Source: a virus
Reading direction: 5' to 3' (one strand)
Length of the DNA stretch: 64,000 nucleotides
Virus record (IMG/VR): IMGVR_UViG_3300037261_000012
Location: 30,884-94,883 of that record
Positions 5,061 through 31,061 of the stretch are shown piece by piece. Position 1 is the stretch's first letter; each line of letters starts with the position of its first letter. The notes beneath the pieces are model-generated. The model worked only from the letters and a program-made list of their open reading frames with translations, was not told the origin of the DNA and did not search any database. The position numbers and the translations under genes were made by a program.

Positions 5061-5107
5061 AAATAGTTCAGAAAGTGCTTGACAGACTGCGCCGATTGCG
5101 GTAAATT
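5061..5107 (+). promoter_or_regulatory. early promoter repeat, copy 3
   Basis: AAATAGTTCAGAAAGTGC-TTGACA(5079)-17-TAAATT. Confidence 0.85.
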
Positions 5108-5144
5108 GTAGTCATAGATCGCAAATACGACAAGGAGTGTCAAA

Positions 5145-7734: not shown

Positions 7735-7865
7735 GCATCACCATACCAGGGTCTGTTTATACAGGCCCGCACTCACCAGCAGAGACAGCCAGACCGTTGT
7801 CTCCCAAGCAACAAGATGGTGTCGTAGAGTACGAAAGTTGGTTAAATTTATTGCAAATAATGACG

Positions 7866-7912
7866 AAATAGTTCAGAAAGTACTTGACAAACTGCGCCGA
7901 TTGCGGTAAATT
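7866..7912 (+). promoter_or_regulatory. early promoter repeat, copy 5 (insertion target)
   Basis: TTGACA(7884)-17-TAAATT; near-identical to the 5061 copy. Confidence 0.85.
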
Positions 7913-7913
7913 G

Positions 7914-8342
7914 GGGAATTACATACTTAACTCCCTCTGACCAAGAGGGACAACTGGAGAACAACGATGAGCAAGCAACTGACGTTCGATGAGTTTCGCG
8001 CTGCCAACGTGGCGCGCTGCCTCAAGTGGAATCCACAAGGGATTGAATCGTGGTCGCCGTCCGACTGGCTTACAGCCGTTACTGGCGAGCTTGGCGAACT
8101 GGCCTCGCTGTTGAAGATGCGCAACCGTGAACGAGACGGCCTTCCCGGTAACAAATTCAGCCCAACCGACAAGCAAGTAGCTGACGAGATAGCAGATGTG
8201 CTCACCTATCTCGACCTGCTGGCCGCTGCGCTGGGCGTTGACTTGGGTTTCGCTGCGGCACAGAAATTTAACGAGGTAAGTGAGCGTGTAGGGTTCCCCG
8301 ACCGCATCGAAATGGCGTGAGGGAGTTATGTATATAAGTCCC
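7914..8342. mobile_element. non-autonomous IS1595-like insertion cassette carrying mazG
   Basis: 24-bp terminal inverted repeats (7914-7937 / 8319-8342, 3 mismatches); 8-bp direct repeat GTAAATTG at 7906-7913 and 8343-8350; no transposase. Confidence 0.85.
7967..8320 (+). CDS. mazG: MazG-like nucleoside triphosphate pyrophosphohydrolase
   Basis: GELGELA...DEIADV acidic metal-binding motifs. Confidence 0.85.
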   Translation: MSKQLTFDEFRAANVARCLKWNPQGIESWSPSDWLTAVTGELGELASLLKMRNRERDGLPGNKFSPTDKQVADEIADVLTYLDLLAAALGVDLGFAAAQKFNEVSERVGFPDRIEMA

Positions 8343-8374
8343 GTAAATTGTAGTCATAACGGAGAAACCAGGTG

Positions 8375-8431
8375 TATTCGCCTACCAATTTAGGCATTAA
8401 CGGACTTAACGCCTAATTTGGTAGGCGAATA
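8375..8431. repeat. 26-bp inverted repeat with a 5-nt loop
   Basis: TATTCGCCTACCAATTTAGGCATTAA-cggac-TTAACGCCTAATTTGGTAGGCGAATA, 2 mismatches. Confidence 0.9.
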
Positions 8432-8437
8432 ATGATG

Positions 8438-8484
8438 AAATAGTTCAGAAAGTACTTGACAGATTCACTGGATTGTGGGAAACT
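8438..8484 (+). promoter_or_regulatory. early promoter repeat, copy 6
   Basis: AAATAGTTCAGAAAGTAC-TTGACA(8456)-17-GAAACT. Confidence 0.85.
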
Positions 8485-8534
8485 CTAGTCATAGGTTGAA
8501 GATCAGAAGTTAAACCCAGACAAGGAGTGTCAAA

Positions 8535-8753
8535 ATGGAAACCAGCAAAACCCTGAGCGCCCAAGTAGTTCTTCGTGGCAACAGCCTGTACACTATCGTC
8601 ACGATGCCCAGCACAAGCAACCTCGACAAGTCCTACCGCGTGGATGTAACTAATGGTCGTTGCGACTGCCCGGCCTGGAAATTCTCGAAGGGCCATACCA
8701 AGGTTTGCAAGCACCTGCAAGCACTGGGCTTCAAACAGCGCGTAGCAGCCTAA
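8535..8753 (+). CDS. SWIM zinc-finger protein, paralogue of 4307
   Basis: YRVD..CDCPAW..SK...CKHL..LG. Confidence 0.85.
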   Translation: METSKTLSAQVVLRGNSLYTIVTMPSTSNLDKSYRVDVTNGRCDCPAWKFSKGHTKVCKHLQALGFKQRVAA

Positions 8754-8806: not shown

Positions 8807-9340
8807 ATGGGAATGAGCACTAACAGAATATTGCGGGCCGCTACCTTTGCCGTGCAAGCACACGGAATCCAGGTACGTAAGTATACTGGTGAGCCGTATG
8901 TGCGGCATGTGTTCGAAGTAGCTGAAATAGTGGCTAGTGTAACTACCGATGAGGACACGATCATTGCCGCCATGCTGCATGACGTGCTGGAAGACACCAG
9001 TATGGAGCCATCGGATATATCATTGCGGTTCGGATTTATAGTACTTGATCTGGTGATGCAATTAACTGATTCCAAAGTAGAACCTGGGATCAATCGCGCT
9101 GCCAGGAAAGCCAATGATTGCTCTCGTTTGTCATTATCTAGTCCAGCAGCGGCTACGATCAAACTGGCCGACTTGATGAACAACACAGAAAGCATCGTCA
9201 AGTATGCTCCTAACTTTGCCAAGGTGTATTTGGCAGAGAAGATGCTGGCACTCACGGTGTTGAGTCATGGCCATGCTGGGCTGTATCATCTTGCCAAAGA
9301 ACAGGTCTTCAGTGCATTGGAAAAGCTGGGACCAAAGTGA
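8807..9340 (+). CDS. HD-domain protein, SpoT/Mesh1-like small alarmone hydrolase
   Basis: H..Q.RKY.GEPY..H, LHDVLEDT, IKLAD...N. Confidence 0.85.
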   Translation: MGMSTNRILRAATFAVQAHGIQVRKYTGEPYVRHVFEVAEIVASVTTDEDTIIAAMLHDVLEDTSMEPSDISLRFGFIVLDLVMQLTDSKVEPGINRAARKANDCSRLSLSSPAAATIKLADLMNNTESIVKYAPNFAKVYLAEKMLALTVLSHGHAGLYHLAKEQVFSALEKLGPK

Positions 9341-28253: not shown

Positions 28254-28681
28254 TGCCCACTCAATTACTTTACCTAGCCGCTGACACCTTAGGTATGCCC
28301 CTGCATGAGGTGGAAGATCATCTCATTCGCGGGGCCAGAACACATGAACTAAAGCTGGGGTTTTGGAAAATTCATGTGGATACTCTGGCCTGCTCAGATG
28401 AATTGAATACCCAAGAGGTGGGCATGGTGTGCCGCCTGAAGGGTGATGTCTGGATGTATCTGATAGTTCATGCTGATGGTACAGCAGCAGGACACCTGTT
28501 CGACGGTGGCACTTTGCAATTGAAATCAAAGGATGTAGCCAAGTTCGGCATGGGTTCTATCAAGGCTACCTTGAAAAAGATCAAGCCTCTGACTAAGGCA
28601 GTGTTATCATACAACCCTGCCCCAGGAAAAGAGAAATGGGAGGAGTGTGATGTCCCTGGTAATTTGGAGTACCAAGCCTGA
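28253..28681 (+). CDS. hypothetical protein
   Basis: GGAG RBS, coupled. Confidence 0.7.
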   Translation: MPTQLLYLAADTLGMPLHEVEDHLIRGARTHELKLGFWKIHVDTLACSDELNTQEVGMVCRLKGDVWMYLIVHADGTAAGHLFDGGTLQLKSKDVAKFGMGSIKATLKKIKPLTKAVLSYNPAPGKEKWEECDVPGNLEYQA

Positions 28682-31061
28682 GGCTTATGTCCGGGCTGCT
28701 TTTGCTGTAGTTTTACATGAGTTCCCTGATTTACCAGTAGTTGTTGTTTCTGATGTCACTGTCTTGCCTAAAATCCCTGGCATGACTACCTTGTTTGCGC
28801 TTGGCCAAGAACCTATTGCCATGCTCGCCAGCAACCTGGTAATACCAAAGAATAGAACAGCCACTAGCCTACGTGGAGTCCCGCACCTCATGACCATACC
28901 TTTTGTAGGTAAGGTCAATGCCCTTGTATCCTATGATCCAGGTGTGCAGGATATGGATTATGGTAGGTATATCCAGCTTCAATGTGATCTCACATCAGCT
29001 ATAAGGTTGGAGACTACCGGAAGCCTATCCCCCGTGTATGGTAACTACGAGTACGTCCCTGACTTACACAGTTTCAGAGGAATGATAGAGGCTGTCTGGG
29101 AAGAATTCCCACTTCGCATGGTTGATGTGGCCCTTGATCTGGAGACTGTAGGGCTAGACCCGTGGCTCTTACCAAAAGATAAACACCCAGGAGCATACAT
29201 TGTTTCCATCCAAGTATCAGCAGAGGAAGGCACTGCACAGGTTGTGTATTTTAACAATGCTAAGGAAGAACAAAACTGGTTCATGACATTGGAGTTTGTT
29301 GAAGACCTTATTTGGATACTCACTAATACAAAGATACGTCTGCGCGGGGCTAACCTAAAATATGATCTGACCTGGTTGTGGGTACGGGCTATGGTGGAGT
29401 GTACGAACTTCGTGTTCGATACGACTTTGGTTGGGTCACTTCTTGATGAAAATCGTAGCAATGCATTGGATGTTCATTGTAAATTATATGCCGCTCCACT
29501 TGGAGGATACTCAGATTTAGTGGATAAGACGGTAGATAAGGCCCGTATGGATTTAGTACCAAGAGATAAACTTCTGCCATATGCAGCAGGAGATGCTGAT
29601 GCCACGTTAAGAGTGGCTAGGCAGATGAAAGGCCAGCTACTGAAAGACAAGCAGCTAACATCTTTTTATGTGAACATCTTACATCCGGCAGCAAGAGCTT
29701 TTGAAATAGTTGAACGTGGTGGGTGTTGTGTTGACCCCAAGGCTTTTGCTGAGCTAGAAGTTGACTTGGACAAAGAAATAGCTGGTCTGGTATGGAAAGC
29801 TCGTAATATTCTTGGTGGAAGAATCTGGGCTAAGCACGCAGACGAGGATAAGAATGGTGGCATGAACTTAACCAAGGCCAGTATGCTGTGTGATTTCATG
29901 TTCAGCCCAATGGGACTCAACCTAAAGCCACTAGAATTAACAGCAGGAGGTAAGGATGGAACTGGGCCAAAGCTACCAAGCACAGCCATAGATCATCTAC
30001 TTCAGTTTAAGGATGTTCCTGAGGCAAGTGAATTTATCGCGCTGCTTGGAGACTATAGTAGTGCAAGCAAAACACTCAGCACGTTTGTCCGTGGCTTTCA
30101 GAAGCATATACGATCAGACGGGAGGCTGCACCCTACCTATTGGTTCTTCGCAGGTAACAAAGATGAGGGTGACGGAGGAACTAATAGTGGTCGGCTCAGT
30201 GCCCGTGATCCTGCCTGGCAAACCCTTCCGAAACACACAAAATGGGCTAAAAGATTGAGGTATTGTTACATCGCACCTTCTGGTCATGTGGTAGTTGAGC
30301 GTGATTACAATCAAGGGGAGTTACGAGTTCATGCCTGCATAGCACATGAGCCAAACATGATCAAAGCATACAAGATGGGTATGGATTTACACGCCCTCAC
30401 TAGTGGAGAATTCAGTGGGTACAATTATGAAGCCATGATGGAACTGAAGAAAACCAACAAGGCACTATTTGATGCCATTAGGCAGTTGGGAAAGGCTGGT
30501 AACTTCGGACTCCTGTATGGCATGTCGGCAGGTGGCTTCTTCGTATATGCTGTTGAGAACTATGGGGTTAAAGATTTCACGATGGATAAGTCAGTCACAT
30601 TCTGTGATGGCTTCTTCCAACGCTACCCAGGTCTGATAACATACAATGAAGCAACTAAGTTGCACGCTCACAAATATGGGTATGTTCGTTCACCATTAGG
30701 AAGAATCAGGCATCTGCCACTAATTAACAGTCCTAACAAGCAGATACAGAGCCAGGCTGAGCGTCAAAGCATAAATGCTCCAACGCAGGGATGTTTATCT
30801 GATTTATTGCTATGGACTATATCAGAGGAGAATCATAATGGAATAAGTGCAGAAGCACCTTGTTTTGGAGCGTGCCACGATGCAGCCTATTCCTATGTGC
30901 TTGAAGACAAGGTAGCACTATGGGTGCCTAAAGCATTAGGGGTTATGGAGAACCTACCATTCAATAAGGTAGGTTGGGAGCCTGAATTGAAATTCCTTGC
31001 AGACGCTAAATTTGGCCCGAATATGGGGAGTTTAACCGAGTGGAAAGGTGCTCACTCTTGA
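28647..31061 (+). CDS. polA: family A DNA polymerase with 3'-5' exonuclease and UDG-like N-terminal domain
   Basis: ExoI DLET, ExoII NLKYD, ExoIII YAAGD; SGRLS..DP..Q; motif A DYNQGELR; motif B R..GKAGNFGLLYG; motif C HDA. Confidence 0.95.
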   Translation: MMSLVIWSTKPEAYVRAAFAVVLHEFPDLPVVVVSDVTVLPKIPGMTTLFALGQEPIAMLASNLVIPKNRTATSLRGVPHLMTIPFVGKVNALVSYDPGVQDMDYGRYIQLQCDLTSAIRLETTGSLSPVYGNYEYVPDLHSFRGMIEAVWEEFPLRMVDVALDLETVGLDPWLLPKDKHPGAYIVSIQVSAEEGTAQVVYFNNAKEEQNWFMTLEFVEDLIWILTNTKIRLRGANLKYDLTWLWVRAMVECTNFVFDTTLVGSLLDENRSNALDVHCKLYAAPLGGYSDLVDKTVDKARMDLVPRDKLLPYAAGDADATLRVARQMKGQLLKDKQLTSFYVNILHPAARAFEIVERGGCCVDPKAFAELEVDLDKEIAGLVWKARNILGGRIWAKHADEDKNGGMNLTKASMLCDFMFSPMGLNLKPLELTAGGKDGTGPKLPSTAIDHLLQFKDVPEASEFIALLGDYSSASKTLSTFVRGFQKHIRSDGRLHPTYWFFAGNKDEGDGGTNSGRLSARDPAWQTLPKHTKWAKRLRYCYIAPSGHVVVERDYNQGELRVHACIAHEPNMIKAYKMGMDLHALTSGEFSGYNYEAMMELKKTNKALFDAIRQLGKAGNFGLLYGMSAGGFFVYAVENYGVKDFTMDKSVTFCDGFFQRYPGLITYNEATKLHAHKYGYVRSPLGRIRHLPLINSPNKQIQSQAERQSINAPTQGCLSDLLLWTISEENHNGISAEAPCFGACHDAAYSYVLEDKVALWVPKALGVMENLPFNKVGWEPELKFLADAKFGPNMGSLTEWKGAHS

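What the first reader, a model, noticed from the sequence alone, without database searches (positions are those of the whole stretch)
7906..8350. Transposase-less IS1595-like cassette that delivered mazG directly behind a phage promoter
Seen: a 429-bp element bounded by 24-bp inverted repeats (GGGAATTACATACTTAACTCCCTC versus the reverse complement GGGACTTATATACATAACTCCCTC) and flanked by an 8-bp duplication, GTAAATTG. Deleting it restores CTGCGCCGATTGCGGTAAATTGTAGTCATA, identical to the uninterrupted promoter copy at about 5087-5116, so the empty site is visible within the same genome. It holds only an RBS and a MazG-like ORF whose stop abuts the right repeat. Established: 8-bp duplications and ggnnatTAT-type ends fit the ISNwi1 subgroup of IS1595, which carries passenger genes. 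Inference: a minimal mobile cassette that captures a promoter by duplicating its -10 box, giving the phage a route to acquire counter-defence genes.
Basis: partly seen in the sequence, partly recalled or inferred. Interest (0 to 1): 0.8.

Follow-up and report, generated by a model that had tools for sequence, protein, structure and literature searches.

The report
Transposase-less IS1595 cassette carrying mazG
A 429-bp jumping-gene cassette with the ends of an IS1595-type insertion sequence but no transposase has placed a single MazG-like nucleotide pyrophosphatase gene right behind one of a 95-kb phage's repeated promoters, and it belongs to a large family of such one-gene cassettes in uncultured phages.

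Summary
Window 7914-8342 is bounded by 24-nt inverted repeats (21/24) and an exact 8-bp duplication, GTAAATTG. Removing it restores 30 nt identical to an uninterrupted promoter copy at 5087-5116.

The ends are not a chance pair. I found 96 distinct paired elements with a 7-8/8 target duplication:
- non-coding MITEs of 107-158 bp;
- cargo-only cassettes;
- 1.3-3.2-kb elements encoding a full IS1595 transposase (Pfam 2e-46, NCBIfam 3e-62).

The phage itself has no such transposase, so the cassette must be moved in trans. Its cargo is an all-alpha NTP pyrophosphohydrolase. The EXXE/EXXD motif is intact, and a family profile hits dCTP pyrophosphatase 1 at 5e-8. The element is 55% G+C in a 47% G+C phage.

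Sister cassettes carry unrelated single genes. Ten of the 12 sister cargoes that could be named are DNA-modification enzymes.

"Promoter capture" is true of this insertion but is not a family habit: 3/89 against 4.3% at control sites. ISNwi1 subgroup membership and a counter-defence role for MazG remain untested.

Earlier notes of this scan describe the same cassette family on other DNA.

The parts
7865..7912 (+). Phage promoter P1 (conserved upstream block, -35 TTGACA 7884-7889, 17-nt spacer, -10 TAAATT 7907-7912). It is intact after the insertion and now reads into the cassette.
   Evidence: one of at least 10 copies of the same promoter, all on the + strand; 10/12 match to the sigma-70 consensus.
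7906..7913 (.). Left copy of the 8-bp target-site duplication GTAAATTG. It contains the -10 hexamer.
   Evidence: The paralogous promoter at 5079-5116 has one copy only.
7914..7937 (+). Left terminal inverted repeat (conserved core 7914-7935). It is the 'C at position 9' end type, which lies upstream of the cargo in small cassettes.
7956..7959 (+). Shine-Dalgarno GGAG, 7 nt before the ATG.
   Evidence: Sister cassettes likewise have GGAG just inside the upstream end.
7967..8320 (+). Cargo gene: a 117-aa MazG-like / DCTPP1-like all-alpha NTP pyrophosphohydrolase.
   Evidence: Pfam hits below cut-off; invariant E41, E44, E74, D77; phrog_229; profile against PDB RS21-C6/DCTPP1, 5e-8; 57% G+C, GC3 64%, phage 46.9%.
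8319..8342 (-). Right terminal inverted repeat (conserved core 8321-8342). The cargo stop codon TGA 8318-8320 abuts it.
8343..8350 (.). Right copy of the target-site duplication GTAAATTG. It is now preceded by IR-R instead of a -35 box.
   Evidence: GGGAGT stands at the -35 position (read).
8375..8431 (+). 26-bp-stem hairpin between the interrupted promoter and the next one. It belongs to the pre-insertion target region, not to the cassette.
   Evidence: I1, 92% complementary; -38 kcal/mol, z -6.2, no T tail.
8442..8493 (+). Second, intact promoter copy P2. It serves the downstream genes (72-aa SWIM-like ORF 8535-8753, HD hydrolase 8807-9340), so the insertion costs them nothing.
   Evidence: (D1, 81% identical to P1).
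5079..5116 (+). Uninterrupted paralogous promoter copy that shows the sequence of the target before insertion.

Best explanation
Window 7914-8342 is a non-autonomous derivative of an IS1595-family insertion sequence, that is, a mobile insertion cassette. It consists of two 22-24-nt terminal inverted repeats enclosing a promoterless, SD-equipped single gene.

An IS1595 DDE transposase supplied in trans, from a host-borne or co-infecting element, inserted it into the AT-rich octamer GTAAATTG of a redundant phage promoter and duplicated that octamer. This step is inferred. The insertion itself is shown.

The upstream -35/-10 pair stays whole, so the cargo is most likely transcribed from that phage promoter (inferred, about 0.65). 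The downstream genes keep their own second promoter copy.

The cargo is a MazG/DCTPP1-type NTP pyrophosphohydrolase of foreign base composition. It probably alters the (deoxy)nucleotide or signalling-nucleotide pool during infection. A counter-defence role is possible but unproven (about 0.3).
For: - TIRs, TSD and restored target.
There are 130 paired ends, of which 99 have a 7-8/8 duplication and 96 are distinct.
- Autonomous relatives with the same ends encode an IS1595 transposase. In L011, end L differs from the window's IR-L at one base; Pfam 2e-46 and 1e-10; NCBIfam NF033547 3e-62.
- No transposase in the phage.
- Transposition shown for the family: a 1457-bp transposase-plus-passenger element sits at five sites with five different duplications at about 99% identity, and a 120-bp MITE sits at two sites.
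- Target preference: duplications are 84% A+T in loci of 44% A+T, with W at positions 2, 3, 6 and 7.
- Cargo is foreign: 55% G+C against 46.9%.
- DNA similarity to other phage mazG genes (up to 94% aa, 83% nt) stops at the ORF ends, and none of 100 such loci has the TIRs.
- MazG fold family.
- Promoter.
- No promoter-like site inside the cassette upstream of the ORF.
Against: - No empty-site allele of this locus and no second copy of this particular cassette were found.
- No transposase partner is known for this phage's unknown host.
- Pfam MazG hits are below the gathering cut-offs.
- The insertion replaces the sequence just downstream of the -10 box with GGGAAT..., which could weaken P1.
- Nothing here shows transcription, enzyme activity or any effect on host defence.
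Confidence: 0.88

Rival explanations
1. A complete transposase-bearing IS1595 element with mazG as passenger inserted here on its own and later lost its transposase gene by an internal deletion in situ. On this view the cassette never moved as a cassette.
For: Transposase-plus-passenger forms are common in the same family. Elements with transposase remnants exist (L252, L227, L083, L037).
Against: No trace of transposase sequence is left; tblastn at 1e-5 finds none. The cassette has the compact layout and the special end types (C at position 9 upstream, C/T at position 5 downstream) shared by 16 of 21 small viral cassettes but rare in transposase-bearing elements: 3 of 88 ends have C9. That argues for a lineage that propagates as cassettes.
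Confidence: 0.08
2. The inverted repeats are regulatory or structural phage sequences, such as paired hairpins around a moron acquired by recombination. On this view they are not transposon ends, and the 8-bp repeat is a coincidence of the promoter repeat family.
For: The phage is rich in repeated promoter and hairpin cassettes. Each TIR is itself nearly palindromic.
Against: The repeats occur nowhere else in this phage. They do occur, with 8-bp duplications of unrelated sequence, around IS1595 transposase genes and unrelated cargo in many phyla. The paralogous promoter has a single GTAAATTG.
Confidence: 0.02
3. The cassette is a dead relic: mazG is not expressed or not functional, and the insertion survives only because it hit a redundant promoter.
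For: P1 had no gene of its own before the insertion. Only a hairpin and P2 follow it, so the site is a safe landing place whatever the cargo does. Promoter use is not a family trait.
Against: The ORF is intact with all four metal-binding acids and a good SD. The duplication is perfect and the ends are 21/24, so the event is recent. Cassettes tend to be co-oriented with both flanking genes, 15 against 6 (crude ORF calls, one-sided p about 0.04 by my own binomial estimate).
Confidence: 0.15

Closest known systems
IS1595-family insertion sequences and their 'transporter IS' (tIS) forms with passenger genes (Siguier, Gagnevin & Chandler 2009, as cited in PMC11891212 and PMC7986276)
   Same: Terminal inverted repeats of about 22-24 nt and 8-bp target duplications. 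Relatives with the same ends encode the Zn-ribbon plus DDE IS1595 transposase, often with one to three passenger genes. The tip GGGAATTAT fits the ISNwi1-group consensus ggnnatTAT as I recall it from ISfinder (memory, not tested).
   Different: This element has no transposase at all and only one gene. It sits in a virion-type phage genome with direct terminal repeats. Only two of 50,697 GenBank phage records hold even a 37%-identical relative of the transposase.
Mobile insertion cassettes (MICs), e.g. IS231-derived MIC231 of the Bacillus cereus group (own knowledge; the term appears in the papers)
   Same: IS ends flanking passenger gene(s) without a transposase, presumed to be mobilised in trans by the parent IS.
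   Different: The parent is a different IS family. The cassettes are much smaller (222-1340 bp) and hold one promoterless ORF with the SD directly against the end. They are found mainly in uncultured phage contigs, with DNA-modification cargo.
MITEs in viral genomes (vMITEs; PMC11602168)
   Same: Non-autonomous elements with TIRs and TSDs shared between cells and viruses. Non-coding members of 107-158 bp exist in this family too.
   Different: The element here is coding. That paper does not mention IS1595, cargo or passenger genes.
Integron gene cassettes (works-like comparison only)
   Same: Compact, mostly promoterless single-ORF units that depend on an outside promoter and carry highly diverse, unrelated genes.
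   Different: Movement is by DDE transposition with 8-bp duplications at AT-rich sites, not by attC x attI site-specific recombination. There is no integrase and no array.
MazG / RS21-C6 (dCTP pyrophosphatase 1) all-alpha NTP pyrophosphohydrolases, including phage MazG-like proteins (phrog_229)
   Same: EXXE...EXXD acidic quartet, size of about 110-120 aa, profile match to PDB 2oie/6sqw at 5e-8 and to YpjD at 5e-5.
   Different: The single sequence is below the Pfam gathering scores. Substrate is unknown.

Membership tests
IS1595 family (as a non-autonomous derivative) | Terminal inverted repeats shared with elements that encode an IS1595 transposase | tested here: met
   L011 (1542 bp) and 43 other elements with the same 22-nt ends carry a full-length relative of the L011 IS1595 transposase; L011 end L differs from IR-L at one base.
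IS1595 family (as a non-autonomous derivative) | 8-bp target-site duplication | tested here: met
   GTAAATTG on both sides. 89 of 96 distinct family elements have a perfect 8/8 duplication.
IS1595 family (as a non-autonomous derivative) | DDE transposase with N-terminal zinc ribbon (PF12762 + PF12760; NF033547) | tested here: not met
   Absent from the element and from the whole phage genome. Present in relatives with the same ends. The element is therefore a derivative, not an IS.
ISNwi1 subgroup of IS1595 | End consensus ggnnatTAT and clustering of the transposase with ISNwi1 | not testable with these tools
   Family consensus GGGAATTATATACTTGACTCCC fits the recalled consensus, but no ISfinder reference sequence was on hand. 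Source names say only 'IS1595 family transposase'. A search of one alphaproteobacterial family returned no genus names.
Mobile insertion cassette (MIC) | IS-type ends around passenger gene(s), no transposase | tested here: met
Mobile insertion cassette (MIC) | Mobilisation in trans by the parent transposase | not testable with these tools
   Only indirect evidence: a fresh TSD here, and multi-site copies for a transposase-bearing element and a MITE of the family. No second site was found for a cargo-only cassette in my sample.
MITE | Small non-coding element | tested here: not met
   83% of the 429 bp is an intact ORF.
MazG-like all-alpha NTP pyrophosphohydrolase | EXXE-(about 12-30 residues)-EXXD metal-binding motif | tested here: met
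   E41, E44, E74 and D77 are invariant in 14 homologues.
MazG-like all-alpha NTP pyrophosphohydrolase | Significant match to family models or solved members | tested here: inconclusive
   Pfam PF12643 21.5 bits (cut-off 27) and PF03819 17.4 bits (cut-off 22), both below cut-off. phrog_229 3.5e-4. The family profile against PDB hits DCTPP1/RS21-C6 at 5e-8. No fold was predicted.
MazG-like all-alpha NTP pyrophosphohydrolase | Pyrophosphohydrolase activity | not testable with these tools
   Needs an enzyme assay.

The most novel reading that the evidence does not exclude
The small cassettes are a distinct, phage-adapted 'chassis' that works as a transposon-borne counterpart of integron cassettes. 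The chassis has 22-nt ends whose outward-facing TATAAT is disabled, an SD abutting the upstream end, and one promoterless ORF. Unrelated genes are swapped into it and then spread by IS1595 transposases between phages of different bacterial phyla. Most of these genes serve DNA modification or nucleotide-pool functions that help against host defence. This would be a general, so far undescribed route by which lytic phages acquire 'moron' genes.
Probability: 0.3. Interest if true: 0.8.

Novelty: new member of a known kind. Interest (0 to 1): 0.5.

Why it matters
How virulent phages pick up single accessory genes is largely unexplained. Here the mechanism can be read from the sequence: a DDE-transposon cassette with a fresh target duplication, in a complete phage genome, with its cargo placed behind a phage promoter.

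The wider family matters more than this one copy:
- It is common in uncultured soil and water phage contigs, yet almost absent from GenBank phages.
- It spans many bacterial phyla.
- It preferentially carries DNA-modification genes.

If the cassettes are active, they are a ready-made, testable vehicle of counter-defence gene flow, and their unknown small ORFs are a source of candidate anti-defence genes.

This copy adds a non-methylase cargo (MazG/DCTPP1-like) and a clean case of insertion into a promoter -10 box.

Tried and rejected
- Close relatives of the region in GenBank phages: none by megablast or blastn.
- Relatives of the phage through the neighbouring HD gene: one 39% hit only.
- Empty-site or filled alleles through a 23-nt flank just downstream of the insertion: none in metagenome or viral contigs.
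- Relatives through the promoter core: one unrelated contig.
- Other copies of the mazG cassette: 20 viral and 80 metagenome loci encode relatives, and none has TIRs within the flanks.
- None of the fetched loci shares anything but mazG with this phage.
- Promoter capture as a family strategy: rejected (3/89, p 0.74).
- Subterminal conservation beyond 22 nt: none.
- Whole-cassette RNA fold: the ends pair, as they must, but the fold is not better than shuffles (z -1.3).
- Literature: eight searches found no paper on IS1595-derived cargo cassettes in phages. The library lacks most subscription journals, including Siguier 2009 itself.
- A search of 301 genomes of one alphaproteobacterial family gave 7 genomes with 1-2 ends each but no names, so ISNwi1 identity stayed untested.

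Full report
**1. Observation**

- IR-L is GGGAATTACATACTTAACTCCCTC at 7914-7937. IR-R is GGGACTTATATACATAACTCCCTC on the minus strand at 8319-8342. They match at 21 of 24 positions.
- A search allowing three mismatches finds only these two copies in the window, and none in 100 shuffles.
- They are also the only two copies in the whole record. The record is a 94,883-bp IMG/VR virus with direct terminal repeats, rated 100% complete; the window is bases 30884-94883 of it.
- GTAAATTG flanks the element on both sides, at 7906-7913 and 8343-8350.
- Joining the flanks gives a sequence identical over 30 nt to 5087-5116. Over the whole promoter, about 57 nt, the two copies differ at two positions.
- This is a paralogous copy within the genome, not an allele. 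It does show that the target had a single GTAAATTG.

**2. Anatomy**

The cassette interior holds three things:
- 29 nt of leader with GGAG at 7956-7959;
- a 117-aa ORF at 7967-8320;
- the stop codon TGA, which directly abuts the 22-nt conserved core of IR-R.

The target is a sigma-70-type promoter, TTGACA-17 nt-TAAATT, matching 10/12. It carries a conserved upstream block, AAATAGTTCAGAAAGTRC. This promoter occurs at least 10 times in the phage, always on the + strand.

The insertion lies 1 nt after the -10 hexamer, so the complete promoter now faces the cargo. The second copy of the -10 is preceded by IR-R, which puts GGGAGT where the -35 should be.

Before the insertion, this promoter was followed only by a very stable hairpin at 8375-8431 (-38 kcal/mol, z -6.2, no T tail) and by a second copy of the same promoter at 8442-8493. 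That second copy serves the next genes. The insertion therefore hit a redundant promoter and leaves downstream expression untouched.

No promoter-like site lies inside the cassette ahead of the ORF.

**3. The ends belong to a large transposon family**

A first scan of viral contigs with the window's ends gave 10 contigs. The latter included Alpha-, Beta-, Gamma- and Deltaproteobacteria, Acidobacteriota, Planctomycetota, Patescibacteria, Dehalococcoidia, Nitrospirota, Bacteroidota and Actinomycetota.

Pairing + and - ends within 8 kb gave 130 pairs. Of these, 99 had a 7-8/8 flanking duplication and 96 were distinct. They fall into three classes:
- non-coding MITEs of 107-158 bp;
- cargo-only cassettes: 29 viral ones of 222-1340 bp and 9 genomic ones of 312-2646 bp;
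- 44 elements of 1308-3116 bp that carry a full-length relative of the L011 transposase, usually with one to three passenger ORFs.

L011 is a 1542-bp element with duplication AAAATAAT. One of its ends differs from IR-L at a single base.
- Its 313-aa ORF matches DDE_Tnp_IS1595 (2e-46), Zn_ribbon_IS1595 (1.3e-10) and NCBIfam NF033547 (3e-62).
- At least 8000 relatives at E 1e-20 or better exist in the protein collection. Those that are named are called IS1595 family transposase.

Conservation is confined to the terminal 22 nt, with consensus GGGAATTATATACTTGACTCCC; beyond that there is none. The search motif fixed most of positions 1-21 at one end of each pair. The partner ends were found with up to five mismatches.

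Duplications are 84% A+T in loci that are 44% A+T, with A/T almost obligatory at positions 2, 3, 6 and 7. GTAAATTG fits this.

Transposition is directly visible in the family:
- a 1457-bp transposase-plus-passenger element lies at five sites with five different duplications at about 99% identity, at least two of them in one gammaproteobacterial MAG;
- a 120-bp MITE lies at two sites.

**4. This copy is non-autonomous and foreign**

The phage genome has no IS1595 transposase. The element is 55% G+C, and mazG is 57% with GC3 64%, against 46.9% for the phage.

Relatives of the cargo, up to 94% aa and 83% nt identity, occur in 20 viral and 80 metagenome loci. Similarity stops at the ORF boundaries, and none of these loci has the TIRs. 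The gene was therefore taken from the ordinary phage mazG pool into a cassette. No second copy of this cassette was found.

**5. Cargo**

The single sequence scores below Pfam's cut-offs (MazG-like 21.5 bits, MazG 17.4 bits) and weakly against phrog_229. A profile of 14 homologues does better. It matches RS21-C6/dCTP pyrophosphatase 1 (2oie, 6sqw) at 5e-8 and B. subtilis YpjD at 5e-5.

The EXXE...EXXD acids (E41, E44, E74, D77) are invariant. The cargo is thus an all-alpha NTP pyrophosphohydrolase. Its substrate is unknown.

**6. What the sister cassettes carry**

Cargo proteins are almost all unrelated to one another. Among the viral cargo-only cassettes, plus L003, the nameable cargoes are:
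- N6/N4 DNA methylase, 5;
- Dam, 2;
- C5 methylase, 1;
- Mom, 2;
- a PAPS-reductase-like protein, 1;
- a cysteine-dioxygenase-like protein, 1;
- this MazG.

About 16 are unknown, including some ten ORFs of 59-93 aa.

Passengers of transposase-bearing elements again include N6/N4, C5 and type I methylase parts. One 21.9-kb viral contig (L105) holds two cassettes, one Mom-like and one methylase.

For MazG itself it is inference.

**7. Tests of the promoter-capture idea**

- The duplicated octamer serves as the -10 of an inward-facing sigma-70-like promoter in 3 of 89 elements (this one, L011, L120). The rate is 4.3% at control AT-rich octamers in the same loci (p 0.74). Hosts are diverse, so this is a rough test.
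- The cassettes look promoterless. In most small ones GGAG follows the upstream end within 2-4 nt and the start codon within 9-15 nt.
- They tend to be co-oriented with both neighbours, 15 against 6, by crude ORF calls.

My reading is that the transposase prefers AT-rich octamers, which -10 boxes and terminator T-runs supply. Selection then keeps insertions that are harmless and transcribed. Here both conditions are met unusually neatly.

**8. An unexplained pattern**

Small viral cassettes (700 bp or less) have special ends.
- The end upstream of the cargo has C at position 9. Among cassettes with C9 at exactly one end, it lies upstream in 12 and downstream in 2, and both exceptions have an equally long ORF on the other strand. 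The downstream end has C or T at position 5.
- Either change destroys the perfect outward-facing TATAAT that the consensus end carries.
- Only 7 of 42 such ends keep TATAAT, against 64 of 88 ends of transposase-bearing elements. Sixteen of 21 small cassettes keep it at neither end.

Two explanations are open. These cassettes may be one lineage whose cargo is exchanged by an unknown route. Alternatively, outward promoters may be selected against in phage genomes.

**9. Comparison with what is known**

- Passenger-carrying IS, the tIS forms, were defined on the IS1595 family (Siguier et al. 2009, cited in PMC11891212 and PMC7986276).
- Transposase-less cassettes with IS ends, the MICs, are known from IS231 (own knowledge).
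- MITEs shared by cells and viruses have been surveyed (PMC11602168), without mention of IS1595 or cargo.
- I found no paper on IS1595-derived cargo cassettes in phages, but the library is incomplete.
- Only two of 50,697 GenBank phage records hold even a distant (37%) relative of the transposase. That would explain why the family has gone unnoticed.
- Earlier notes of this scan describe the same kind of cassette, with DNA-modification cargo, in at least 11 other genomes. They agree with what I found independently, and I did not test their specific claims.

**10. Verdict**

- Observation: confirmed.
- First reading: supported.
- Kind: a real, recently inserted, non-autonomous IS1595-family cassette, a new member of a known kind.
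- What this copy adds: a new cargo type and a very clean promoter insertion.
- Not established: ISNwi1 subgroup, trans-mobilisation, expression, the role of MazG, and an empty-site allele.

Noticed in passing
window 1721, 2667, 5065, 7870, 8442, 17402, 23733, 24627, 26737 (starts of the conserved block); genome position 6731: At least 10 copies of one promoter cassette (AAATAGTTCAGAAAGTRC-TTGACA-16/17 nt-TAAATT/GAAACT/TAAAAT, often with TGTGG before the -10), all on the + strand. P1 at 7870 and P2 at 8442 are tandem, with only a hairpin between them.
   Followed up: partly
window 8375-8431: 26-bp-stem hairpin (92% complementary, -38 kcal/mol, z -6.2) without a T tail, lying between two promoter copies. 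It may be a processing or regulatory site rather than an intrinsic terminator.
   Followed up: partly
window 8807-9340: A 177-aa HD_4 / RelA-SpoT N-terminal hydrolase-domain protein (Pfam 6e-19, TIGR00691 3e-22, phrog_990 4e-36). It looks like a small alarmone hydrolase and lies two genes after the acquired MazG-like gene.
   Followed up: no
small cassettes in L005, L008, L049, L060, L064, L077, L093, L124, L125, L142, L144, L148, L200, L218 and the window: The ends are polarised. C at position 9 marks the end upstream of the cargo, and C/T at position 5 marks the downstream end. Both changes remove the outward-facing TATAAT that 73% of ends of transposase-bearing elements carry.
   Followed up: partly
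same small cassettes, first 40 nt inside the upstream end: GGAG follows the inner end of the repeat (ACTCCC) within 2-4 nt and the start codon follows within 9-15 nt, so CUCC and GGAG could pair. The cassettes appear to be promoterless one-ORF units.
   Followed up: no
L003:1437-2575 and L012:464-1602: A 1139-bp cassette with PAPS-reductase-like cargo (phrog_424, 2e-28) lacks a direct duplication. Its flanks are instead inverted copies of each other (GCGAAAAAAT... / ...ATTTTTTCGC).
   Followed up: no
L105:1658-2462 and L105:11961-12588: Two different cassettes of the family lie in one 21.9-kb viral contig: an N6/N4 methylase (TSD CATTTTTT) and a Mom-like protein (TSD GAAACCAT).
   Followed up: partly
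L157, L192, L238, L240, L250: A 1451-1459-bp element (transposase plus a 100-aa passenger) lies at five sites with five different duplications at about 99% identity. L157 and L192 are contigs of one gammaproteobacterial MAG (CATOTD01). This element is active or was so recently.
   Followed up: partly
window 28647-31061: The DNA polymerase is 52% identical to those of the 96-kb Stenotrophomonas phages DLP_3, DLP_5 and Summit. These are the nearest named relatives found for this 95-kb phage.
   Followed up: no
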